Under the pieces are notes generated by a model, which was not told the origin of the DNA, searched no databases, and saw only the letters and a program-made list of their open reading frames with translations. The position numbers were made by a program, and so were the translations under genes. From Burkholderiales bacterium (GTDB taxonomy: Bacteria; Pseudomonadota; Gammaproteobacteria; Burkholderiales; Nitrosomonadaceae): a stretch of DNA of 64,000 nucleotides. Shown here piece by piece: positions 30,126 through 64,000 of the stretch (its first letter is position 1; each line of letters begins with the position of its first letter). The stretch covers positions 24,667 to 88,666 of the forward strand of contig JACKLU010000009.1 in NCBI GenBank assembly GCA_024235735.1, in the 5' to 3' direction.

Positions 30126-31835
30126 ATGATTTCCAAGCTATGGCATAAATTGGCCATGTTTGCGGGCGCAATGGCGCTGGCTGGAGCTGCGCATGCGGCA
30201 GTACCGAGCGTGCCGGATGTAACGTATGAAGCACTGGGTTTGGACAGGAGCGCGACGCCGAAGCAATTGCACGAAGCGCTGGTGAAGCGTTACAAGGATC
30301 CTGAGCAAGGGTACGGGAAAGGCACGATGGGAGATTACTGGGAGCCGATCCAGCTGAGTACATACATGGATCCGGCGACCTTTTACGAGCCGCCGACATC
30401 GATGAGAGACAAAGCGGAACGTAAGGAATGCGTAGAGTGTCACACGGATGAATCGCCGGTATGGGTTAATGCATGGAAGAAGAGCACGCATGCGAATCTG
30501 GATAAAGTGCGCGCATTGAAGCCGGAAGATCCGACATATTACAAAAAAGCGAAACTTGAGGACGTAGAGAAGAATCTGCGTTCATTGGGTTACTTGAAAG
30601 AAGGCGAACCGCTGAAGGAAGTTGGCTGTATTGATTGTCACGCGGGGATTAATCAGCAGGGCAAGATTGACCACAGCAAAGACCTGATCATGCCGACGGC
30701 GGACGTATGTGGCAAATGCCACCTGCAGGAATTTGCCGAGCGTGAATCCGAGCGCGACACCATGATATGGCCGAACGGACAATGGCCGGATGGACGTCCT
30801 TCACACTCGCTGGACTACAAAGCCAACGTAGAGACCACGGTATGGGCGGCGATGCCGCAACGTGAAGTGGCCGAAGGCTGCACGATGTGTCACTACAACC
30901 AGAACAAATGCGACGGCTGCCATACCCGGCACGAATTCTCAGCGGCGGAATCCCGTAAACCGGAAGCCTGCGCGACCTGCCACAGTGGTGTAGATCACAA
31001 CAACTGGGAAGCGTACTCCATGTCCAAGCACGGCAAGATTGTTGCGATGCTGGGCGACAAATGGAACTGGGAAGTTGAGCTCAAAGACGCCTACAGCAAA
31101 GGTGGACAGACAGCGCCGACCTGCGCGGGTTGCCATATGGAATTTGAAGGCGAGTATGCGCACAACATGGTCAGGAAAATCCGCTGGGCGAACTATCCGT
31201 TTGTACCCGGCATAGCCGAGAACATCAACAGCGAATGGTCGGAAGAAAGACTGGATGCATGGGTAATTACCTGCACCCAATGTCACTCAGAGCGTTTCGC
31301 ACGTTCCTATCTTGATCTGATGGACAAAGGCACGCTGCAGGGACTGGCGAAATACCAGGACGCGCACGCGGTCGTATCGAAACTGTACGAAGAAGGACTG
31401 CTGTCAGGACAGAAGACCAACCGTCCGAATCCACCGGCGCCAGAGAAGCCTGGATTCATGATCTTCACACAGCTGTTCTGGTCGCAGGACAACAACCCGG
31501 CGTCAATGGAGCTCAAAGTACTTGAAATGGGCGAAAACGATCTGGCCAAAATGCACGTAGGTTTTGCGCACGTCAACCCGGGCGGCTGGACATACACCGA
31601 AGGTTGGGGGCCGATGAACCGTGCATACGTTGAAGTACAGGACGAAAACACACGGATACGTGAAATGGTTGCATTAAAAGAACGCGTGGCCAAACTCGAA
31701 GGCAAACGCACAAGCTTACTCGACCTTGACAGCACGGCAGAGAAGATTTCGCTGGGCGGTTTAGGTGGCGGCATGCTGCTGGCTGGTACATTAGCACTGG
31801 CGGGCTGGCGCAAACGTAAGCAAAGCGAAGCTTGA
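30126..31835 (+). CDS. haoA: Hydroxylamine oxidoreductase (octaheme, oxidative type)
   Basis: Eight CxxCH motifs; cross-linking Tyr context GGWTYTEGW; signal peptide; C-terminal hydrophobic tail. Confidence 0.98.
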
Positions 31836-32878
31836 TACCCGCAGAGACAACCGATCGCGACGCGCAAGCGAAGCGGTCGGGAAATAAACTACTCCCGTCA
31901 TTAGGACTGCTCCTGGTGACGGGAGGTTTGGTTTTATTGGGATGGGTTGCGTATACCACGTGGATCAAACCGGTAGACGCGCCCTATCATTATCAGCACG
32001 TATCGACTGGAAATCCGCAGCAATATCCCGATCTCGAACTGGACGACTGGCCAGAGCTCACCATCAATCGGTATGATGTCATCGTGCCAGACATAGCCAA
32101 GCCCATAGCACAAGCCACCGTAGCACAACGTGAAAACAGTGCGCCGGTATTGATCAAATGGCAAAACAACAGTAAAGAAATACTGCATACACTGGACTGG
32201 AAATCAAGCGAACTCAGTGCGTTGGCCAAAGCGATCAAGCAATACGCGCCCAGAGATGCATTACTGCTGGCGTGGTGGGATCTATCACAGCAATTGAACC
32301 TGCTGACCGAATACGAAACCCTGTTCACCAATCACCTGAAAGAACCGCAAATCATACCGCAGCACTGGCTGAAATACAGCCGGGCGATAGACGCTTATGA
32401 GAATGCGTTCTGGCAAAACAAAGCACAGCGGAAAGAAATCGAAAACTTCGGGCAATTCAGCCTTGCACTGGCATCGAAACCGGAAGAAGGCGTGCCGATG
32501 CTGCGCAAACTGATCGGATCCGACCGTGAAGCCTATCTGATAGTGCATGTCACCGACCTGTACAAACTGGGGCTCATGTACCCGGAAAGAATAGGCGTCG
32601 CATACCAGAACTTTCCGTTAAGCGGGAACATACACGGCATGATCAATCACATGAAAGTGCAGCTCAAAGAAAACGACTTTGACACCTACACCCTGCAATC
32701 GATCACGGACTCAGAGATCAGAGTATATTTTCTAAGCGATGAAGAAAGCAGTCAGTCCCTGCTTGCGCAAATGCTGCCTTTCACCGACAAACCCGCGCCA
32801 ATGGAACTGGAAGCACTCGAGCTACTCTATCAGAGAGGAGGCTACTGGTTATACAAAATACCTGGAGAACGGGGATAG
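31832..32878 (+). CDS. haoB: Hydroxylamine oxidation protein HaoB (orf2)
   Basis: TTG start overlapping the haoA stop; N-terminal TM; LLAWWD motif; canonical position between haoA and cycA. Confidence 0.92.
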
Positions 32879-55122: not shown

Positions 55123-56355
55123 ATGGAAGTTGCCGACCTTAAAATTCTGCTCGTCGACGATGACACATTTATACTGAAGCTGTTGACCAAGATGCTCGTC
55201 AATCATGGTTTTAAATCAATTGAGGCTTGTGATAACGGTCCTGATGCGCTAAAAAAAATCGACCATCCCCAAACGCGTCCTGATTTGATTCTGTTGGACC
55301 TCAATATGCCGGATATGGATGGTATTGAGTTTGTTAGGTATTTGGTCGAACGGCGCTATCAAGGCAGTCTGGTGCTTGTCAGCGGAGAAGACGAGCGCAT
55401 GCTGAAAACAGCGGAAAAGCTGGTGCATGCCCATCAGATTACGATGCTGGGATATCTCCACAAGCCGGTCAGTCCGGACAAACTGGTTAATCTGATAAAA
55501 AAATGGGCGCCGCCGGAGGGAAATCATCGAATAACTCCGCTGGCTAAAAAAAATTATGATGCCGCAGCTTTGAAAAGCGCGATATCCAATCGAGAGTTGG
55601 TGAATTATTATCAGCCCAAGGTAGCTGTGAAGACTGGTGCAGTGATTGGCGCTGAGACCCTGGTGCGTTGGCGGCATCCAACTGATGGGCTGGTATTTCC
55701 AGATCAGTTTATTAAAACGGCGGAGCAAGAGGGGCTGATCAACGACCTCACTTCGCTGGTGTTGAGCCAAGCATTGGCGCAGGCCAGAGTCTGGCATGAA
55801 AGTGGTTACGCATTACGGGTGGCGATCAATGTTTCCATGGACAATTTGGCATCGCTGAATTTCCAGGACCTTGTTGTCAATCTTGCGATTGACAACGGTC
55901 TCTCGCCTCAAAACATTGTACTCGAAGTGACGGAAAGTCAATTAATGAGTGCGGACGCGCGGGTGCCCTTGGAAATTCTGACGCGATTACGGCTGAAACG
56001 CTTTCATCTGTCGATTGATGATTTCGGCACCGGTCATTCGTCAATGGCGCAGCTACGCGATATTCCTTTTGATGAACTCAAGATTGATCAAGGCTTTGTC
56101 CATCGCGCCTGGGCGGATGAGACATTGCGCGCCATCTATGATGCAAGCCTTTCCATGGCTAAGCAGTTGGGTATGGAAGTTGTGGCGGAAGGTGTTGCAG
56201 ATGAAAAGGACTGGCTTTTTTTGCAACAGACAGGTTGTGACTATGCGCAGGGTAATTTTGTATCCAAACCGTTACTGGCGGATGACTTTGTATCGTGGAT
56301 GCATGAGTGGGATAATCGTGTCCGGCAGGGGAAGCTGCTAAGCGATTCTGCCTAG
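55123..56355 (+). CDS. Response regulator receiver + EAL c-di-GMP phosphodiesterase
   Basis: LLVDDD...LLDLNMPDMDG receiver; YQPKV, ETLVRW, EVTES, IDDFGTG, ELKID, AEGV, QGN. Confidence 0.92.
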   Translation: MEVADLKILLVDDDTFILKLLTKMLVNHGFKSIEACDNGPDALKKIDHPQTRPDLILLDLNMPDMDGIEFVRYLVERRYQGSLVLVSGEDERMLKTAEKLVHAHQITMLGYLHKPVSPDKLVNLIKKWAPPEGNHRITPLAKKNYDAAALKSAISNRELVNYYQPKVAVKTGAVIGAETLVRWRHPTDGLVFPDQFIKTAEQEGLINDLTSLVLSQALAQARVWHESGYALRVAINVSMDNLASLNFQDLVVNLAIDNGLSPQNIVLEVTESQLMSADARVPLEILTRLRLKRFHLSIDDFGTGHSSMAQLRDIPFDELKIDQGFVHRAWADETLRAIYDASLSMAKQLGMEVVAEGVADEKDWLFLQQTGCDYAQGNFVSKPLLADDFVSWMHEWDNRVRQGKLLSDSA

Positions 56356-56856: not shown

Positions 56857-57993
56857 CTACGGTCTCAAATTGTCATTTGTAAATACCGCAATCTGATTTC
56901 TGCCGCCTTCTTTGGCCTGATACAAGGCTGCATCTGCTCTGGCGAGCAATAGTGTGCCGATTGACTCGCAATTCGGTTTCTCCTGCGGCGATGATGGGCA
57001 GAAATTTTTCAGATTGGCCATGCCAATCGAAATGGATACTCGAAATTGTTCACCCTGGAAATCGTATAAATTTGAGTAAACCGACTGACGCAAACGCTCG
57101 GCTATTTCGTGAGCAGATTGCAGTGATGTTGCCGGAAGCACAACGACAAACTCTTCTCCGCCGTAGCGCGCCACGATGTCACAGGCGCGTATCTGCATTT
57201 TTATCAGACTGGCTGTGCGTACTAAAACATCATCGCCGATCTGATGGCCATAGGTATCATTAATGCGTTTGAAAAAATCTACATCGAGAAACATGCACAC
57301 CAGATCGTCTTTCCAGCGCAGACTGCGAGCGATTTCGTCCTTTAGGCGCAGATCAAAGTAACGGCGGTTATAAACCCGCGTCAATACGTCCTGATAACTG
57401 ATTTCCCTGAGCCGTTGTTGATTGAGGCAGTTTTCAATGGCGACTGCGATCATGGCGGATAATTTTTGCAGAAAAAACGTGCCAATGCCCTGTGGATAGC
57501 GTTTCGCATCATCACTCAGAAGCAGTAAGGCACCGATAATACGCTTTCTCCGCATCAATGGAAGATATGCGGCACTTTTGAAAGGTGCTTTATTGTTCAG
57601 GCCAGTGATCATCCAATGGCATTTTTCAAGGACATCTGCGCCTGTTAATGATACCTTGTCTAATGTATCAATAATTCTGGAATCTTTGACGGTATCAAGT
57701 ATCCGCAGCCTGTTTTCATGGTTCGTTCGGGTTTTTTCATCCTGATCGAAGAACAGGCGCGCCGTATCCTTATGCTGATCAATGAGACACAGCACAACGT
57801 CCTGCAATTGAAAGCGCACTTTCAGTTGTGAAAATAATAAATAGCGCAATTCTGTTGGCGTGTTCGCATCGATAATTTCAAAACCGAAAGTTTCGTACTG
57901 CGTCTGCTTTTTTTCGTTATCCCTGGCATGCCGGATCAAATCATCAAGCTTGGTTTGCAGCAGACTATTTTTAATATGACCGGGGATGTTCAT
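56857..57993 (-). CDS. DUF484/GAF-like + GGDEF diguanylate cyclase
   Basis: DVLTRVYNRR, DVDFFKRINDTYGHQIGD, I-site RACD, RYGGEEF. Confidence 0.9.
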   Translation of the reverse strand: MNIPGHIKNSLLQTKLDDLIRHARDNEKKQTQYETFGFEIIDANTPTELRYLLFSQLKVRFQLQDVVLCLIDQHKDTARLFFDQDEKTRTNHENRLRILDTVKDSRIIDTLDKVSLTGADVLEKCHWMITGLNNKAPFKSAAYLPLMRRKRIIGALLLLSDDAKRYPQGIGTFFLQKLSAMIAVAIENCLNQQRLREISYQDVLTRVYNRRYFDLRLKDEIARSLRWKDDLVCMFLDVDFFKRINDTYGHQIGDDVLVRTASLIKMQIRACDIVARYGGEEFVVVLPATSLQSAHEIAERLRQSVYSNLYDFQGEQFRVSISIGMANLKNFCPSSPQEKPNCESIGTLLLARADAALYQAKEGGRNQIAVFTNDNLRP

Positions 57994-58046: not shown

Positions 58047-58889
58047 TTAACATAGATTTTGTTGGTCAGTACATGTTCTTTCCTGCAGCATGCGAACAAT
58101 CCACCAGATTGCCAGCGCTGCTATCAAATGCTTCAACGTGTGACCGCTGACTATCTGTCCCAGAGTGAAAATCTGCTGATCCAATGTTTCAGCTACTTTT
58201 GCCAGCGCGTAAAACCCAATGGCCTGGAGTACCCTGTTGCCGTGTGTGTAAGCGGTGGGCAGCATCAGACTCAGGAGTGCTATGAGCAATAATGAATAAA
58301 ACTGTATGACAATATAAAAATTCAGATTGCCGGCACCCTGCTGCTCGCTCCAATACCAGTACAATACGCTTGCCGCGCCGATTGACACGAGCACCGGCAA
58401 TAAATGAAACCCCAGTTTGGGATCGACACGTTCGGACAATGTCGCTGCAAGCAGCGCCATAATGCCGATTGCGATGGGCAGGCGATCCCAGAGCAGTGCC
58501 GTATTATCGGGGTGCCAATGGTAACAGGCTGATCCCAGGGCGGTCATGACAATGCTGAGAAAAAAAATCCGATACGGCCACACTTCCGCGGAAGTTCTAA
58601 ACGGCCGCCGATTGAATTCATGCCTGCTGCCTGTTATATGTCGAAGACAAAATAGGCCTGCGATGCCGCTGAACAAAATGGCAAGGTTGGAGGCCACGTT
58701 CATGAAATTAGGTATGCCCAGCAGCCGCCGCTGATCGGCAAATCCGTGGTAATCATGGGGCTGCGCGATCGGCGGCAATGCAGCTGCGCTCAGTATAACA
58801 AGGAAAGAAAATGCGCCTAGAAAATATAATAGCCGCAGTGTTTCTCGATTCAGTTTATGCGGGCCTTTTGTATAATCGGTTTCAGTCAT
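58047..58889 (-). CDS. CREST-superfamily (ceramidase-like) membrane hydrolase
   Basis: HGFADQR...NVASNL, GSACYHW, WDRLP, GHTLKH; start overlaps the radA stop (ATGACTGA). Confidence 0.75.
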   Translation of the reverse strand: MTETDYTKGPHKLNRETLRLLYFLGAFSFLVILSAAALPPIAQPHDYHGFADQRRLLGIPNFMNVASNLAILFSGIAGLFCLRHITGSRHEFNRRPFRTSAEVWPYRIFFLSIVMTALGSACYHWHPDNTALLWDRLPIAIGIMALLAATLSERVDPKLGFHLLPVLVSIGAASVLYWYWSEQQGAGNLNFYIVIQFYSLLLIALLSLMLPTAYTHGNRVLQAIGFYALAKVAETLDQQIFTLGQIVSGHTLKHLIAALAIWWIVRMLQERTCTDQQNLC

Positions 58890-60234
58890 ACATCCGCCCA
58901 ACAGCATCTCGTACATTATTAACAGCGATGATTTCCATACCGGCGATGGATTGTTTCGGTTTATTCGCCTGAGGAATGATGGCGCGGGAAAATCCAAGTT
59001 TGGCGGCTTCCTTTAATCGCTCCTGCCCGCGCTGAACGGGACGGACTTCACCTGCGAGTCCTACTTCGCCGATAACCACCATTTTTTCCGCCAACGGTTT
59101 GTTTTTCAGCGAAGAGACAATGGCCAGCAAAATGGCCAGATCCGCGCCGGGTTCCGCAATTTTGACGCCACCGACAGCATTGACGAAAACATCCTGGTCA
59201 AAACAGGGAATACCGGCATGACGGTGCAACACGGCCAGCAGCATGGCTAACCGGTTTTGTTCCAGACCAACGCATAAACGTTTGGAATGCGGTGCACGCG
59301 CCTCGTCGACAAGGGCTTGTATTTCAACCAGCAGCGGGCGCGTGCCTTCCTGCGTCACCATGACACATGAACCGGCCACCTGACCACCATGATGCGACAG
59401 AAATAAAGCCGATGGATTTTTGACTTCGCGTAGCCCCTTCTCGCTCATGGCGAAGACACCCAGCTCATTGACCGCGCCAAAACGGTTCTTGAAAGCGCGG
59501 ATCAGGCGGAAGCTTGAATGCATATCGCCTTCGAAATATAAAACGGTATCCACCATATGCTCGAGAACACGGGGCCCTGCCAGAGCGCCTTCTTTTGTCA
59601 CATGACCGATGAGAATGATCGCAGTGCCGCTGGATTTAGCTTGCCGTGTGAGTTGCGCGGCACATTCGCGTACTTGCGCGACTGAGCCGGGGGCGGACTG
59701 AAGTATTTCCGAATAAATCGTTTGAATCGAGTCAATTACAACTATGCGGGGTTGATGCGCATTCAACGTTTGCTGTATTTTTTCCAGCTGTATTTCTGCA
59801 AGGAGGGGTACGGATTGGACATTGAGCGCGAGTCTTCTGGCGCGAAGCGCTACCTGTTGGGCGGATTCTTCGCCACTGACATACAGTACTTTGCAGTCAA
59901 TAGACATTTGCGCCAGCGCTTGCAGCAATAAGGTGGATTTACCGATACCTGGATCACCGCCGAGCAACACAACGCCGCCGCGCACCATGCCGCCGCCGAG
60001 CACGCGATCCAATTCGGAAATGCCGGTGGAATAGCGCGGTTCTTCCTGCGTTTCAATATCACACAGATTTTGCACCTGGTCTGTATCGGATACCGGACTG
60101 AAACGTGATATTTCTTTTTCGGTCACGGTTTCAACAAGTGTATTCCATGACTGGCATTGCGGGCATTGGCCCTGCCATTTCAAGGTTTGTCCGCCGCATT
60201 CGGTGCATACATAGACTGATTTTTGTTTAACCAT
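58882..60234 (-). CDS. radA: DNA repair protein RadA (Sms)
   Basis: CTECG...CPQC zinc finger, GGDPGIGKST, KNRFG, Lon-like C-terminus. Confidence 0.97.
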   Translation of the reverse strand: MVKQKSVYVCTECGGQTLKWQGQCPQCQSWNTLVETVTEKEISRFSPVSDTDQVQNLCDIETQEEPRYSTGISELDRVLGGGMVRGGVVLLGGDPGIGKSTLLLQALAQMSIDCKVLYVSGEESAQQVALRARRLALNVQSVPLLAEIQLEKIQQTLNAHQPRIVVIDSIQTIYSEILQSAPGSVAQVRECAAQLTRQAKSSGTAIILIGHVTKEGALAGPRVLEHMVDTVLYFEGDMHSSFRLIRAFKNRFGAVNELGVFAMSEKGLREVKNPSALFLSHHGGQVAGSCVMVTQEGTRPLLVEIQALVDEARAPHSKRLCVGLEQNRLAMLLAVLHRHAGIPCFDQDVFVNAVGGVKIAEPGADLAILLAIVSSLKNKPLAEKMVVIGEVGLAGEVRPVQRGQERLKEAAKLGFSRAIIPQANKPKQSIAGMEIIAVNNVRDAVGRMYD

Positions 60235-60267
60235 TAGCAATCCGCCAGACGATAGGGGGACAGCAAT

Positions 60268-60825
60268 TTACGCCTGACTATCCGTATAGACTTCCGCCAT
60301 TTTGAATGATTTGCCCTGCGCATCTTTGGCGGAAAGCGCCGGTTCCCTGTCAATAGGCCAGTCAATAGCGAGGGTGGAATCGTTCCAGATAATGCAGCGC
60401 TCATGTTCAGGCGCCCAATAGTCGGTAGTCTGGTACAGAAATTCGGCGTAATCCGAAAGCACGACAAATCCGTGCGCGAACCCTTCCGGTATCCAGAGCT
60501 GCTTTTTGTTCTCGGCGCTCAGTATTTCACCCACCCATTGACCAAAAGTCGGCGAAGCATGGCGTAGATCTACCGCTACATCGTATACTTCGCCCGCGAC
60601 GACGCGCACAAGTTTGCCTTGCGGTTGCTTTATCTGGTAATGCAAGCCGCGCAATACATTTTTCATCGAGCGGGAATGATTGTTTTGCACGAAAGCTACA
60701 TGCCTGCCGATGATCTGATCAAATTGCCGCTGATTGAAACTTTCATAGAAGAAGCCGCGCGTATCGCCAAAAACTTTGGGTTGCAGGAGATAAACATCGG
60801 GTATTGCCAGTTGTGTCGCATTCAT
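60268..60825 (-). CDS. rmlC: dTDP-4-dehydrorhamnose 3,5-epimerase
   Basis: FGDTRGFFYE, LRGLHYQ, QGKLVRV, GFAHGF. Confidence 0.95.
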   Translation of the reverse strand: MNATQLAIPDVYLLQPKVFGDTRGFFYESFNQRQFDQIIGRHVAFVQNNHSRSMKNVLRGLHYQIKQPQGKLVRVVAGEVYDVAVDLRHASPTFGQWVGEILSAENKKQLWIPEGFAHGFVVLSDYAEFLYQTTDYWAPEHERCIIWNDSTLAIDWPIDREPALSAKDAQGKSFKMAEVYTDSQA

Positions 60826-60882
60826 ATCGTTAGTCACCACGGATATTGGTCAACTGAGGGTTTATAGGTTTAGAGATGCCCT

Positions 60883-61812
60883 TTAATGTTTGCGTTGGAG
60901 AACTTGCAGCAGATACTGACCGTAACCGTTCTTCGCCAGGGGCATGGCGAGTGCCTCCAGCTGTGCGGCATCAATCCAACCCTGATGAAAAGCAATTTCT
61001 TCCGGGCAGGCAATTTTCAACCCTTGCCTATGCTCTATCGTCGCTACAAAATGACTCGCTTCGAGCAGTGATTCGTGTGTTCCGGTATCCAGCCAGGCAT
61101 AACCGCGTCCCATGATTTCGACATTCAGCGTTGAATGCTCCATGTAAATCCGGTTTACGTCCGTGATTTCCAGTTCATTGCGATGCGAAGGCTTGATGCT
61201 TTTGGCGTAATCAACAACATTGCGGTCATAAAAATATAATCCGGTTACAGCATAGTTCGATTTCGGATTCAGCGGTTTTTCTTCCAGACTCAGTACCTGC
61301 CCCTGTGTGTCAAATTCCACTACGCCGTAACGTTCGGGATCTTGCACATGATAAGCGAAAACACTGGCGCCGGATGTTTTCTGCATGGCGTTGGCCAGCA
61401 AGTGACAAAAATCATGGCCGTAGAAAATATTGTCACCTAGAACTAGCGCTGAACAATCATTGCCAATGAAAGATTCGCCAATGAGAAAAGCCTGTGCCAG
61501 TCCACCCGGCTCGGGTTGAACCGCATAAGCGATATTCAATCCCCATTGACGTCCGTCGCCGAGCAGCAGTTCATAATCGGCGATATCCTGCGGTGTTGAT
61601 ATAATCAGCAGATCGCGCATACCAGCAAGCATCAATGTGGTGAGGGGGTAATACACCATGGGCTTGTCGAAAACCGGTAACAGCTGTTTGGAAACGGCCT
61701 TGGTCACCGGGTAAAGTCTTGTTCCTGAACCACCGGCAAGCACAATTCCCTTTCTGTGCGGTATCTGTTGTTGAATACTATTTTCTTTGGTCTGTTGTGT
61801 TGATTGCGTCAC
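60883..61812 (-). CDS. rmlA: Glucose-1-phosphate thymidylyltransferase
   Basis: [41 protein letters not shown]. Confidence 0.96.
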
Positions 61813-62046
61813 TTCGTTTATTCCGTTAAATCAGAATGGTGCGACAGGGTATGCGAGCAGATGTCAATTCAAACGCGCGTGCCGGATGTTGATCAACATA
61901 AGCAGCATGGAGTGACTCCGCTGACTGATTAAGTGAAATGCGCATTGTATACTATATTAACTTGCAGCGAGAATCGCTGCTCCAGACTTAAAATTAGGCA
62001 TCGCAATGAGAAACATGAACGGGGTGTTGAATAAATCGCAGCTACC

Positions 62047-63747
62047 ATGATTCAGACACACTATTACCGACGTCTTGCAAGCATGATGACAGCCTGCAGG
62101 CATTCTTTTTTATGGGCCTTGTCGGCCATGATGATCATGGCGGTAATAATGGCCTTCCTGCCGATGCAGATTCAACACATACTGCGCGCCGCTTTTGTCG
62201 AGCAGGACGAATCATACGCACAAACCGCACTGCTCGTTTTTATTGTACTTATCATTATTTACAGTGTTTCCGGATATGTCGGTCAGTACTGGATGAGAAA
62301 AGCAGACAAGCAGCTCGTTATGCAATTGAACAGCGTATTGTTTGACAAATTGCTTCATCTGCCTGCGCAGTACTATCAATCTTTAAGCGAGAATCATGCT
62401 GCTCAGACGGTATTACATCAGGTTCGGACGATATCGAGGACGAGCATGCAGGCGCTGACGGTATTGATGCGGGATACGTTTGCGGTTTCAGGACTCATTG
62501 CATGCCTTTTTTATTTGAACAGGGAAATTGCGATGCTGATTTGCTTGCTGATTCCTTTTGTTTTTCTGATGCTTCAGATTACAGCCGGCCAGCAAAATCG
62601 CTTTCCTGATGCCACGATGCAAAACGCCGAATCGGATAAGACCGAACTGGCTGGCTGTTTGCACCGTTGTCTTGAGAACTTTCGCTATATCCAGTTATTT
62701 GGCGGGCAACAGCAGGAGTGCCAGCACCTCGACAGTAATGCACAATCCATTCTGAACAGTGAGAATCAGCAAAATGACTATAAGGCGTTCGTTGCAATGC
62801 TCTGTCAGTTATTGATTGCCCTGATCGTCATAGCGATGGCTTATTTGCTGATGCAACAGGTTATTGACAAGACATTATCGATCGACCAGGCCGGCGCTTT
62901 TATCGCCATCATGCTGTTACTGATAATGCCCGTCAGTCGTCTGGCCGGAGTGTCTCATGTGCCTGAATTGATGCAGCGACAACTGGAACAATTGTTTGCA
63001 GTGTTTGATCTTCCCGCAGTATCAATGAATGGGGCTGTCAGCTTAACGGAAGTACGCGGAGAATTAATACTGAATCAGGTGCATGTGCGGTGTAGTGAAA
63101 AAGCGTCTTGCCAGACGTATACGCTCGATTTGAACATCAAGCCAGGGGAGACGATCGCTCTGGTTGTTGATGACAGCGCGGCAAGATTGCTGCTCATGGA
63201 TTTGCTGCTGGGTTTCAGCCCACCGGCAACGGGCGAGATAAAACTGGATGGACAGGACTACGGCCAGATCAGACGTTGCGATTTGCTTGCGCAGTTTGCC
63301 GTCATTTCCGGTATTCCGATTATTCTCGGCGATTGCATCGCGGATAATATTGCTTATGGCGATACCGGTTGCGCGCATGAAGCGCACATTATGCAGACAA
63401 TCCGGACAACCGGGGTTGCAGGTTTTGTGCGTGACATGCCGGAGGGCTTGCAGACACGAATCGATGGCAATGACGCGCGCCTGACGCGCAAGCAATGGCA
63501 GCTTGTTGCTGTCGCACGGGCATCTCTGAGAAATCCACCGATCCTAATCATCGATGATCTCTGGCCGCGGCATGTGCAGGAATTGACTGACGATGTATTC
63601 AAAGCGCTTACAGAAGTAATGCGGAACCGAACAACGATTCTGCTGCTACCGGCTATGCCGACCTGTCGGGAAGGCATTGACCGGATTCTGCTGTTGGAGA
63701 CAGGAGAAATCGTTATTCCCGGCGAACAGCGTAACTCCCACCGATGA
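62047..63747 (+). CDS. MsbA-like ABC half-transporter with a degenerate (predicted inactive) nucleotide-binding domain
   Basis: 6-TM domain plus NBD scaffold (PGETIAL, GEIKLDG, DNIAYG, MPEGLQT, ARASLRNPPILII), but Walker A, Q-loop, signature, catalytic Glu, D-loop and H-switch are all substituted. Confidence 0.8.
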   Translation: MIQTHYYRRLASMMTACRHSFLWALSAMMIMAVIMAFLPMQIQHILRAAFVEQDESYAQTALLVFIVLIIIYSVSGYVGQYWMRKADKQLVMQLNSVLFDKLLHLPAQYYQSLSENHAAQTVLHQVRTISRTSMQALTVLMRDTFAVSGLIACLFYLNREIAMLICLLIPFVFLMLQITAGQQNRFPDATMQNAESDKTELAGCLHRCLENFRYIQLFGGQQQECQHLDSNAQSILNSENQQNDYKAFVAMLCQLLIALIVIAMAYLLMQQVIDKTLSIDQAGAFIAIMLLLIMPVSRLAGVSHVPELMQRQLEQLFAVFDLPAVSMNGAVSLTEVRGELILNQVHVRCSEKASCQTYTLDLNIKPGETIALVVDDSAARLLLMDLLLGFSPPATGEIKLDGQDYGQIRRCDLLAQFAVISGIPIILGDCIADNIAYGDTGCAHEAHIMQTIRTTGVAGFVRDMPEGLQTRIDGNDARLTRKQWQLVAVARASLRNPPILIIDDLWPRHVQELTDDVFKALTEVMRNRTTILLLPAMPTCREGIDRILLLETGEIVIPGEQRNSHR

Positions 63748-63804
63748 GACGTTAAGTGTCGGAATATTTTACACGCATCGCGCAAAAAAGCCGGAGTAGG
63801 CGGA

Positions 63805-63893
63805 GTAGGCTGGGTTAGCGAAGCGTAATGCAGCATTGCCATGATGTCCACCGCAGTGTTTACGTTGGAGTTCGCAAACTCACCACCAATTTG
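63805..63893. repeat. Degenerate inverted REP-like doublet
   Basis: GTAG-GCTGGGTTAGCGAAGCGTAATGCAGC and the opposite-orientation GTTGGAGTTCGCAAACTCACCACCAATT resemble GTAG-class REP palindromes. Confidence 0.45.
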
Positions 63894-64000
63894 TGCGGTT
63901 ACGCGATTCGGGGAAGGCGAACACCGTGATCCCAACATCATCCCGCACATTTCCGCCGCTACAGACCAAAACTGTCGAAAAATTTTACAATTTCACGTTA

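What the first reader, a model, noticed from the sequence alone, without database searches (positions are those of the whole stretch)
62047..63747. Full-length MsbA-like ABC protein with all six ATPase motifs destroyed
Seen against the MsbA consensus: Walker A GxSGxGKS > VDDSAARL; Q-loop VSQ > ISG; LSGGQ > LTRKQ; Walker B ILDE > IIDD; D-loop SALD > RHVQ; H-switch AHR > LPA. Yet the 566-codon frame, TMD and scaffold residues are intact. Ordinary heterodimeric exporters lose only part of one site; losing both the Walker and signature halves would leave neither site canonical in a dimer. Inference: a pseudo-ATPase acting as a regulator, passive flippase/scramblase or lipid sensor, divergent from rmlAC; alternatively a gene in early decay.
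Basis: partly seen in the sequence, partly recalled or inferred. Interest (0 to 1): 0.68.

Follow-up and report, generated by a model that had tools for sequence, protein, structure and literature searches.

The report
ATPase-dead MsbA orthologue in ammonia oxidisers
This Nitrosomonas gene descends from the lipid A flippase gene msbA at the same chromosomal position, has lost every ATP-binding and hydrolysis motif, and is still kept intact by selection across the whole Nitrosomonadaceae family, so it is a working "pseudo-ABC transporter" and not a decaying gene.

Summary
Window 62047-63747 (+) is an intact 566-codon ORF with an MsbA fold in which the A-loop, Walker A, Q-loop, X-loop Glu, signature, catalytic Glu, D-loop and H-loop are all replaced. 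It is not early decay. About 60 species-level Nitrosomonas genomes, including cultured N. marina, N. aestuarii, N. ureae, N. oligotropha and N. communis, carry an intact copy in the same position that also lacks the motifs. dN/dS is 0.16-0.30 in 22 pairs, and the dead NBD (0.11-0.33) is as constrained as the TMD. No real frameshifted copy was found.

All degenerate proteins form one clade (bootstrap 100/100). They form a graded series running from canonical MsbA, through partly degenerate forms in uncultured Nitrosomonadaceae and in Nitrosospira/Nitrosovibrio, to Nitrosomonas; this window scores lowest of the proteins tested. A chain of shared neighbours shows the gene is the positional orthologue of canonical msbA.

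The former catalytic positions now vary freely. The NBD scaffold, the Walker B Asp and both coupling helices remain conserved.

Best reading: an ATP-independent MsbA descendant that works without an adjacent partner. Its exact role is unknown. I could not determine whether these genomes also hold a canonical MsbA, and that is the decisive open point.

The parts
62047..63747 (+). Full ORF (566 aa plus stop): MsbA-fold half-transporter with a dead NBD
   Evidence: AF2 model with pLDDT 74 and pTM 0.72; the top 12 PDB fold hits are all MsbA, TM 0.63-0.67 over about 565 columns
62047..63021 (+). Transmembrane domain (aa 1-325), six long helices; PF00664 matches aa 27-296
   Evidence: dN/dS 0.17-0.36
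62350..62382 (+). Coupling helix 1 region (LLHLPAQYYQS), conserved in both the degenerate family and canonical MsbA
62680..62718 (+). Coupling helix 2 region (FRYIQLFGGQQQE); G219, G220, Q221 and E224 are at least 88% conserved in the family and in canonical MsbA
63037..63744 (+). Degenerate nucleotide-binding domain (aa 331-566); the scaffold is kept and the catalytic residues are lost
   Evidence: dN/dS 0.11-0.33
63085..63099 (+). A-loop slot VRCSE (canonical FTYPG; the adenine-stacking Tyr is lost)
63166..63192 (+). Walker A slot VDDSAARLL (canonical GRSGSGKST): no Gly-rich loop, no Lys, acidic instead
63301..63315 (+). Q-loop slot VISGI (Gln becomes Gly)
63346..63360 (+). NIAYG, a scaffold motif that is (near-)invariant in the family and in canonical MsbA
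63424..63474 (+). FVRDMPEGLQT plus the X-loop slot TRIDGND. The FxRxMPxGLxT part is shared with canonical betaproteobacterial MsbA; the X-loop Glu is lost
63481..63501 (+). Signature slot LTRKQWQ (canonical LSGGQRQ): Gly-Gly is replaced by Arg-Lys
63541..63558 (+). Walker B slot ILIIDD: the Mg-binding Asp is kept (50/52 in the family); the catalytic Glu becomes Asp
63565..63576 (+). D-loop slot PRHV (canonical SALD)
63643..63654 (+). H-loop slot LLPA (canonical IAHR; His becomes Pro)
61813..62046 (.). 234-bp divergent intergenic region shared with rmlA; the simple scan found no sigma-70 consensus match inside it
58882..61812 (-). Conserved divergent neighbours rmlA (60883-61812), rmlC (60268-60840) and radA (58882-60240), syntenic in nearly all Nitrosomonas loci
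63748..64000 (.). Downstream region that diverges between strains about 100 nt after the stop. It is an insertion hot spot in relatives, lying before the convergent wbpM-GT4 genes

Best explanation
The gene encodes a functional descendant of the lipid A flippase MsbA that cannot hydrolyse ATP and most likely cannot bind it: a 'pseudo-ABC exporter'. It arose once at the base of the Nitrosomonadaceae, from the msbA gene that sits in the LPS/O-antigen neighbourhood. It lost the ATP machinery stepwise and is inherited vertically.

Shown:
- It has a full MsbA fold.
- Every nucleotide-contacting motif is gone except the Walker B Asp.
- It is under purifying selection in both domains.
- The coupling helices and the NBD scaffold that docks them are conserved, while the old catalytic positions drift freely.
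- No partner ABC gene is adjacent.

Inferred:
- It acts as a homodimer.
- Its NBDs serve as a nucleotide-independent structural and coupling module that holds the intracellular loops.
- Its TMD still handles an envelope lipid or glycolipid without ATP. This could be downhill (facilitated) translocation of lipid A-core or an undecaprenyl-linked sugar, pulled by downstream ATP-driven steps such as Lpt. It could instead be a non-transport role in the same pathway.

Speculative: acidic residues in the old P-loop and basic residues in the old signature may pair across the dimer and replace ATP as the 'glue'.
For: - Motif loss.
- Fold.
- Family-wide intact copies in the same position.
- Selection: dN/dS is 0.16-0.30 overall, 0.17-0.36 for the TMD and 0.11-0.33 for the NBD, in 22 pairs. 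In the pairs where they were measured, rmlA, rmlC and radA give 0.03-0.13; close canonical MsbA pairs give 0.13-0.22.
- Single origin: bootstrap 100/100, sister to canonical Gallionella/Sulfuricella-type MsbA.
- Graded TIGR02203 scores: 806 and 780 (canonical), then 605, 560, 510, 392, 354 and 291 (this window).
- Positional orthology chain. The canonical P0334 and the partly degenerate P0303 share the upstream genes TauE-EVE-ZapA-TonB receptor. P0303, Nitrosospira L088 and Nitrosomonas share the downstream convergent wbpM-GT4. A Sulfuricellaceae genome has rmlA-rmlC..GT4-wbpM-msbA with a canonical msbA.
- Catalytic slots have 1.4-3.2 bits of entropy against 1.42 for the rest of the NBD; the Walker B Asp has 0.24.
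- Coupling-helix and scaffold residues are conserved.
- No second ABC_membrane gene lies within 10 kb.
- Contigs from RNA runs cover the gene at depths similar to its neighbours.
- GC content matches the neighbours.
- Basic residues fill the signature GG slot in 40/52 members against about 12 expected, and acidic residues occur in the P-loop slot in 50/52.
Against: - The gene evolves 4-5 times faster than its housekeeping neighbours. Across Nitrosomonas it is 31-81% identical where radA is 82-97%.
- The lipid A-binding ring R78/R148/K299 is invariant or conservatively substituted (R148 > K, one G) in the canonical outgroups but is not conserved here; this window has Y/R/S. That argues against an unchanged lipid A flipping role and leaves the substrate open.
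- No biochemical data exist.
- Transcription evidence comes only from patchy metatranscriptome contigs that may include DNA.
- The homodimer state and any transport activity are inferred.
- The charge-pairing idea rests on counts from related, non-independent sequences and has no structural test.
- Whether a canonical MsbA exists elsewhere in these genomes is unknown, so I cannot say whether this protein replaced MsbA or was freed by a paralogue.
Confidence: 0.6

Rival explanations
1. Silent partner. The protein heterodimerises with a canonical half-transporter encoded elsewhere (a second MsbA or another ABCB-type protein) and modulates it. Its Arg-Lys signature would face the partner's ATP-loaded Walker A, giving one crippled site and one dead site.
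For: The signature slot is consistently basic (40/52), so it could contact a gamma-phosphate held by a partner. The coupling helices and NBD scaffold are conserved. Heterodimeric exporters with one non-catalytic site are common (PMC7756269). The loss of the lipid A-binding ring implies that something else flips lipid A.
Against: Heterodimeric ABC exporters are, from general knowledge, nearly always encoded by adjacent genes. Here no second ABC_membrane gene lies within 10 kb in about 60 loci. In such a dimer neither site would be canonical, which has no known precedent. No candidate partner was identified.
Confidence: 0.2
2. Sole flippase. These bacteria have no canonical MsbA, and this protein is still the lipid A-core flippase, now working without ATP as a facilitator. 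Lipid A synthesis on one leaflet and Lpt extraction on the other would supply the driving force.
For: The gene is the positional orthologue of msbA and forms a single vertical clade. NCBI's pipeline names the partly degenerate form 'MsbA' in Nitrosomonadaceae MAGs. No canonical hit named Nitrosomonas or Nitrosospira appeared among 80 genome loci or two 120-row homology lists. At least one Arg of the R78/R148 pair is kept in most members.
Against: The absence evidence is weak. The lists were saturated by Gallionella-type proteins, and the genome scan used family-specific peptide patterns. The lipid A ring is not conserved. The protein evolves much faster than expected for an essential single-copy function. 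From memory only, curated databases list an MsbA for N. europaea; I could not verify this.
Confidence: 0.15
3. Gene in decay: a pseudogene, or a gene drifting neutrally that happens to be still open.
For: The catalytic motifs are destroyed. Evolution is 4-5 times faster than in the neighbours.
Against: The ORF stays open at full length (545-580 aa) in about 60 species across synonymous divergence above 1. dN/dS is 0.16-0.30, with no upper confidence limit above 0.44 for the whole gene. The scaffold and coupling helices are conserved. The only apparently broken copy (L025) lies in an assembly where radA and rmlA are broken as well.
Confidence: 0.02
4. The NBD still binds or hydrolyses a nucleotide through a non-canonical site.
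For: The Walker B Asp is retained (50/52). The oligotropha/ureae clade keeps a G....EK[NT] remnant and ILILDE.
Against: In this window's clade the A-loop Tyr, the P-loop Gly residues and Lys, the Q-loop Gln, the catalytic Glu, the D-loop and the H-loop His are all gone. These positions are among the most variable in the domain, which is the opposite of what a preserved site would show.
Confidence: 0.03

Closest known systems
MsbA, the lipid A-core flippase (E. coli and others; TIGR02203; PDB 3B5W, 5TV4, 6BPL, 8DMO)
   Same: It is the best sequence model and the best structural match, with the same length and architecture of six TM helices plus a C-terminal NBD. It is the positional orthologue, by a chain of shared neighbours. 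The coupling helices, NIAYG, FxRxMPxGLxT, ARA, the Walker B Asp and NRTT are conserved.
   Different: It scores 291 bits against a cutoff of 602. All ATP-binding and catalytic motifs are replaced. The lipid A-binding ring R78/R148/K299 is reduced to R148 only. The C-terminal tail is shortened. It is about 22% identical to E. coli MsbA and 28-30% identical to the canonical MsbA of sister families.
Heterodimeric type IV ABC exporters with one degenerate site (TM287/288, TmrAB, BmrCD, LmrCD; eukaryotic ABCC/CFTR, TAP)
   Same: They are natural examples of ABC exporter NBDs with non-consensus catalytic residues that keep a structural or regulatory role (PMC7756269).
   Different: In those proteins only one of the two composite sites is degenerate. 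Both Walker A loops are intact, and the degenerate site still binds ATP tightly. The two halves are encoded together. Here both halves of the site are lost in one polypeptide, including the P-loop, and no partner gene is adjacent.
SbmA/BacA peptide transporters
   Same: From general knowledge, they show that an ABC-exporter-type transmembrane fold can work without ATP, since they are driven by the proton gradient.
   Different: SbmA has no NBD at all and belongs to a different family; no SbmA_BacA Pfam hit was found here. This protein keeps a complete NBD under purifying selection.
PglK / Wzk ABC flippases of lipid-linked oligosaccharides
   Same: They are homodimeric MsbA-like half-transporters encoded among glycan biosynthesis genes. 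Here the neighbours are rmlAC and wbpM-GT4.
   Different: PglK needs ATP hydrolysis. The PglK model NF050066 scores 95 bits against a cutoff of 1000. The glycan-gene neighbourhood predates the motif loss, so it does not point to a PglK-like role.

Membership tests
MsbA (NCBIfam TIGR02203 equivalog) | Whole-protein HMM score at or above the curated cutoff (602 bits) | tested here: not met
   291.3 bits. The graded series runs 806 and 780 (canonical), then 605, 560, 510, 392, 354 and 291.
MsbA (NCBIfam TIGR02203 equivalog) | MsbA-type fold: six TM helices with domain-swapped coupling helices plus a C-terminal NBD | tested here: met
   AF2 model with pLDDT 74. The top 12 Foldseek PDB hits are all MsbA, TM 0.63-0.67.
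MsbA (NCBIfam TIGR02203 equivalog) | Walker A GxxGxGK[ST] | tested here: not met
   VDDSAARL
MsbA (NCBIfam TIGR02203 equivalog) | ABC signature LSGGQ | tested here: not met
   LTRKQ
MsbA (NCBIfam TIGR02203 equivalog) | Walker B Asp-Glu, D-loop SALD, H-loop His, Q-loop Gln, A-loop aromatic residue | tested here: not met
   Only the Walker B Asp is kept. The changes are E>D, SALD>PRHV, H>P, Q>G and Y>C.
MsbA (NCBIfam TIGR02203 equivalog) | Basic ring that binds the lipid A phosphates (E. coli R78, R148, K299) | tested here: not met
   Y / R / S in this window. The ring is invariant or conservatively substituted (R148 > K, one G) in 29 canonical outgroups.
MsbA (NCBIfam TIGR02203 equivalog) | Orthology to msbA by descent and position | tested here: met
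   Monophyletic, sister to canonical betaproteobacterial MsbA, bootstrap 100/100. Supported by the synteny chain.
MsbA (NCBIfam TIGR02203 equivalog) | ATP-dependent lipid A-core flipping activity | not testable with these tools
   Needs ATPase and flippase assays or complementation of an msbA conditional mutant.
ABC type IV exporter superfamily (Pfam PF00664 + PF00005) | Both domain models above the gathering score | tested here: met
   ABC_membrane 86.9 bits (cutoff 28); ABC_tran 32.8 bits (cutoff 25).
Heterodimeric ABC exporters with one degenerate site | A partner half-transporter gene adjacent in the same operon | tested here: not met
   No second ABC_membrane gene within 10 kb in the window or in about 60 loci. 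Only a MacB-type ATPase lies several kb away.
Heterodimeric ABC exporters with one degenerate site | Intact Walker A, so the degenerate site still binds ATP | tested here: not met
   The P-loop is absent.
PglK-type lipid-linked oligosaccharide flippase (NF050066) | HMM score at or above the cutoff (1000 bits) | tested here: not met
   94.9 bits
Pseudogene | Disrupted frame or dN/dS near 1 among orthologues | tested here: not met
   Intact in about 60 genomes. dN/dS is 0.16-0.30. The L025 breakage is an assembly artefact.

The most novel reading that the evidence does not exclude
Betaproteobacterial ammonia oxidisers have no ATP-driven MsbA at all. The only MsbA orthologue in the family has shed its ATPase step by step and now moves lipid A-core, or another envelope glycolipid, across the inner membrane without ATP. 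It would be driven by substrate supply and by downstream Lpt extraction. That would be an energy-saving re-engineering of an otherwise universal, essential ABC machine in energy-limited chemolithotrophs.
Probability: 0.15. Interest if true: 0.92.

Novelty: new variant of a known kind. Interest (0 to 1): 0.72.

Why it matters
ABC exporters are defined by ATP-driven NBD dimerisation. Known 'degenerate' cases lose catalysis at only one of two sites and still bind ATP there (PMC7756269). Here a full-length exporter has lost both halves of the site, and selection still preserves its NBD as strongly as its TMD. The family also offers a natural series of intermediates, from canonical through partly dead to fully dead.

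That makes two questions directly testable:
- What does an ABC NBD do when it cannot bind nucleotide?
- Can an MsbA-type TMD operate without ATP?

The finding also matters for annotation. Public pipelines label these proteins 'MsbA' (KO or PGAP) or give them generic ABC names. Metabolic reconstructions of nitrifiers may therefore assume an ATP-driven lipid A flippase that this gene cannot provide. If no canonical copy exists in these genomes, LPS export in a globally important group of nitrifiers works differently from the textbook pathway.

Tried and rejected
1. Search for a canonical msbA in the same genomes. None of these attempts was conclusive.
- Large ORFs of the 64-kb window: none is an ABC exporter.
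- Within 10 kb of about 60 loci: only a MacB-type ATPase.
- Homology searches seeded with the intermediate P0129 and with the nearest canonical protein P0334: no canonical hit was named Nitrosomonas or Nitrosospira, but both 120-row lists were saturated by Gallionella-type MsbA.
- Contigs of two isolate assemblies (X49, X60) laid on canonical msbA loci at 80% likeness: the built-in controls rmlA and rmlC were not detected, so the method is too insensitive. The only hit in msbA of L076 was the degenerate gene's own contig.
- Literature and supplementary tables of Nitrosomonas omics papers: nothing usable.

2. A sphingolipid link, suggested by the 'ceramidase-like' neighbour and PMC11324152: no connection to this gene.

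3. Pseudogene reading: rejected.

4. Horizontal transfer: GC is 0.49 against 0.51 for the neighbours, and the phylogeny looks vertical. Rejected.

5. Promoter and terminator consensus scan: uninformative.

6. A homodimer AlphaFold run was not attempted. The tool returns no coordinates or contacts, so it could not test the interface idea.

7. dN/dS for distant canonical pairs appeared inflated (0.4-0.7), which I attribute, without testing, to synonymous-site saturation or codon bias in GC-rich genomes. Only the close pairs (0.13-0.22) were used as reference.
Full report
**Observation.** Window 62047-63747 (+) is an uninterrupted ATG-to-TGA frame of 566 codons.
- Pfam finds a strong ABC_membrane domain (aa 27-296, 86.9 bits) and a weak ABC_tran domain (aa 360-504, 32.8 bits, cutoff 25).
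- Of all NCBIfam models the best is the MsbA equivalog TIGR02203, at only 291 bits against a cutoff of 602.
- In 29 canonical MsbA sequences from sister lineages these positions are invariant or nearly so.

**Organism and setting.** The window carries a hydroxylamine-oxidoreductase-type multihaem cytochrome. The exact protein occurs only in activated-sludge and wastewater metagenomes, and its named relatives are Nitrosomonas. The gene is divergent from rmlA-rmlC-radA. Its GC content (0.49) matches those neighbours (0.51).

**Not a decaying gene.**
- A profile scan of one genome per bacterial species returned about 55 distinct Nitrosomonas copies. They include cultured N. marina Nm22 and Nm71, N. 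aestuarii Nm36, Nitrosomonas sp. Nm51, N. ureae Nm13 and N. oligotropha Nm45 and Nm75.
- All copies are full length (545-580 aa), sit next to rmlA-rmlC-radA, and lack the canonical motifs.
- An exhaustive profile search added N. communis, Nitrosovibrio sp. Nv4 and uncultured Nitrosomonadaceae.
- Pairwise Nei-Gojobori dN/dS is 0.16-0.30 in 22 pairs spread over all clades, and no bootstrap interval for the whole gene rises above 0.44.
- The TMD gives 0.17-0.36 and the dead NBD gives 0.11-0.33, so the NBD is at least as constrained as the TMD.
- In the pairs where they were measured, rmlA, rmlC and radA give 0.03-0.13. Close pairs of canonical MsbA give 0.13-0.22.
- The single apparently broken copy (L025) lies in an assembly where radA and rmlA are also split across frames, so it is an artefact.
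- Contigs from several metatranscriptomes cover parts of the gene at depths similar to its neighbours. This is compatible with transcription but does not prove it.

**What it is in evolutionary terms.** Canonical MsbA proteins from Gallionella, Sulfuricella and related lineages are the nearest intact relatives, at 27-30% identity to the window protein. All degenerate proteins form one clade in 100 of 100 neighbour-joining bootstraps. Within that clade the motif state is graded:
- An uncultured 'Nitrosomonadaceae bacterium' group keeps the Q-loop Gln and Asp-Glu (or Glu-Glu) in Walker B. It has Walker A GSSDDSKN, signature LSRGQ and H-loop Arg.
- Nitrosospira and Nitrosovibrio have SFQTSSAA or GFRGSAA, and LSAGQ or LTSGQ.
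- The oligotropha/ureae clade keeps only G....EK[NT] and ILILDE.
- The window's clade has lost everything but the Walker B Asp.

Scores against the MsbA model fall in the same order:

| Protein | TIGR02203 bits (cutoff 602) |
|---|---|
| L060, canonical (Sulfuricellaceae) | 806 |
| P0133, canonical | 780 |
| P0129 (Nitrosomonadaceae MAG) | 605 |
| P0135 (Nitrosovibrio sp. Nv4) | 560 |
| L088 (Nitrosospira) | 510 |
| P0013 (oligotropha clade) | 392 |
| P0138 (N. communis) | 354 |
| This window | 291 |

The 605-bit form sits just above the cutoff, and NCBI names that form 'MsbA' in the MAGs.

**Positional orthology.** A chain of shared neighbours links the window gene to canonical msbA:
- The canonical protein closest to the degenerate clade (P0334) and the partly degenerate P0303 share the upstream genes TauE-EVE-ZapA-TonB receptor.
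- P0303, Nitrosospira L088 and nearly all Nitrosomonas loci share the downstream convergent wbpM-like dehydratase and GT4 transferase.
- A Sulfuricellaceae genome has rmlA-rmlC..GT4-wbpM-msbA on one strand, with a canonical msbA 12 bp after wbpM.

So the window gene is the direct positional descendant of msbA and not a stray paralogue.

**What is kept and what is lost.**
- The former catalytic slots are now the most variable part of the NBD, at 1.4-3.2 bits. The rest of the NBD averages 1.42 bits, and these slots have 0-0.5 bits in canonical MsbA.
- Conserved features are both coupling-helix regions (LLxLP..Y and R.I.L.GGQ..E), NIAYG, F.R.MP.GLQT, Q....ARA, the Walker B Asp, NRTT and IDRI. Most of these are shared with canonical betaproteobacterial MsbA.
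- The lipid A-binding ring (E. coli R78/R148/K299) is invariant or conservatively substituted (R148 > K, one G) in the canonical outgroups but not here: Y/R/S in this window and R/Q/Q in the oligotropha clade.
- The AlphaFold model (pLDDT 74, pTM 0.72) matches MsbA structures best.

**Mechanism.**

Shown:
- The protein cannot use the canonical ATP site.
- It is maintained by selection in both domains.
- The TMD-NBD coupling interface is preserved.
- No partner ABC gene is adjacent.

Inferred:
- It works as a homodimer.
- Its NBDs act as nucleotide-independent structural and coupling modules.
- It performs an ATP-independent task on an envelope lipid or glycolipid.

Speculative: basic residues fill the old Gly-Gly slot of the signature in 40 of 52 members against about 12 expected. 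Acidic residues occur in the old P-loop slot in 50 of 52. These could pair across the dimer in place of ATP. The counts come from related sequences and have no structural test.

**The open point.** I could not establish whether these genomes also encode a canonical MsbA. All five routes tried were inconclusive: the window, locus flanks, two homology searches, isolate contigs laid on canonical msbA (with failed sensitivity controls), and literature plus supplements. The fast evolution and the loss of the lipid A ring suggest that another protein flips lipid A. The positional orthology, and the absence of any canonical hit named Nitrosomonas or Nitrosospira, keep the 'sole MsbA' case alive. A single hmmsearch on complete genomes would settle it.

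**Comparison with known systems.** The protein works like none of the described ABC exporters.
- The review of degenerate sites in type IV (formerly type I) exporters describes only cases with one degenerate site, which still binds ATP (PMC7756269).
- My literature searches found no full-length exporter with both sites dead.
- It is not a member of the MsbA equivalog family by that family's own score and motif criteria, although it is MsbA's orthologue by descent.
- SbmA/BacA shows that an exporter-type TMD can run without ATP, but it has no NBD.

**Verdict.** This is a real, conserved, previously undescribed variant of a known kind: a family-wide, stepwise-evolved pseudo-ABC exporter derived from MsbA. 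Interest is high for ABC transporter mechanism and for envelope biogenesis in nitrifiers.

Noticed in passing
window 63748-64000; L007 11839-12856; L095 11945-12450; L010 12034-20000: The stretch between the ABC gene and the convergent wbpM gene is an insertion hot spot. It holds an IS110-family transposase in the 81% relatives, a ParD/ParE pair in a 78% relative, and a luciferase-like plus lanthipeptide-synthetase-like block in a 51% relative. Strains carrying the identical protein diverge about 100 nt after the stop, and all six metagenome contigs end there.
   Followed up: partly
P0129 cluster (e.g. MEE8530550.1): NCBI names the partly degenerate form (Walker A GSSDDSKN, signature LSRGQ, H-loop Arg) 'lipid A export permease/ATP-binding protein MsbA', because it scores 604.7 against a cutoff of 602. 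JGI also assigns the MsbA label to fully degenerate members. These annotations imply an ATPase that the sequences cannot support.
   Followed up: partly
window 58047-58997 (-): A membrane protein with a weak, sub-threshold Ceramidase (PF05875) match is conserved next to radA in nearly all Nitrosomonas loci and evolves fast (dN/dS 0.12-0.33). The longest ORF overlaps the radA 3' end by about 116 nt; gene callers on other contigs use a later start (286 aa).
   Followed up: no
window 30126-32878 (+): A hydroxylamine-oxidoreductase-type multihaem cytochrome (PF13447, 517 bits) is followed by a 348-aa ORF with no Pfam hit. This marks the organism as an ammonia oxidiser.
   Followed up: no
window 55123-56355 (+) and 56857-57993 (-): A response-regulator-EAL protein and a convergent GGDEF protein (c-di-GMP turnover pair) lie a few kb from the ABC gene. 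They are syntenic in the close relatives.
   Followed up: no
L025 (JAWKNJ010000007.1, labelled Flavobacteriales bacterium): The contig has Nitrosomonas gene order (radA-rmlC-rmlA / ABC), but every gene is split across reading frames. It is probably a mis-binned, indel-rich assembly.
   Followed up: yes
window 61727-62440, RNA run X31: A 714-nt contig from an RNA library spans the rmlA 5' end, the whole divergent intergenic region and the first 400 nt of the ABC gene at uniform depth. This is either DNA carry-over or a transcript running through the divergent promoter region.
   Followed up: no
L007 18018-21198; L095 18219-21400: A MacA-MacB-type tripartite ABC efflux set (membrane fusion protein, ATPase, FtsX-type permease) lies about 6-8 kb downstream of the ABC gene in several Nitrosomonas genomes. 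It is the only intact ABC ATPase near the locus.
   Followed up: no
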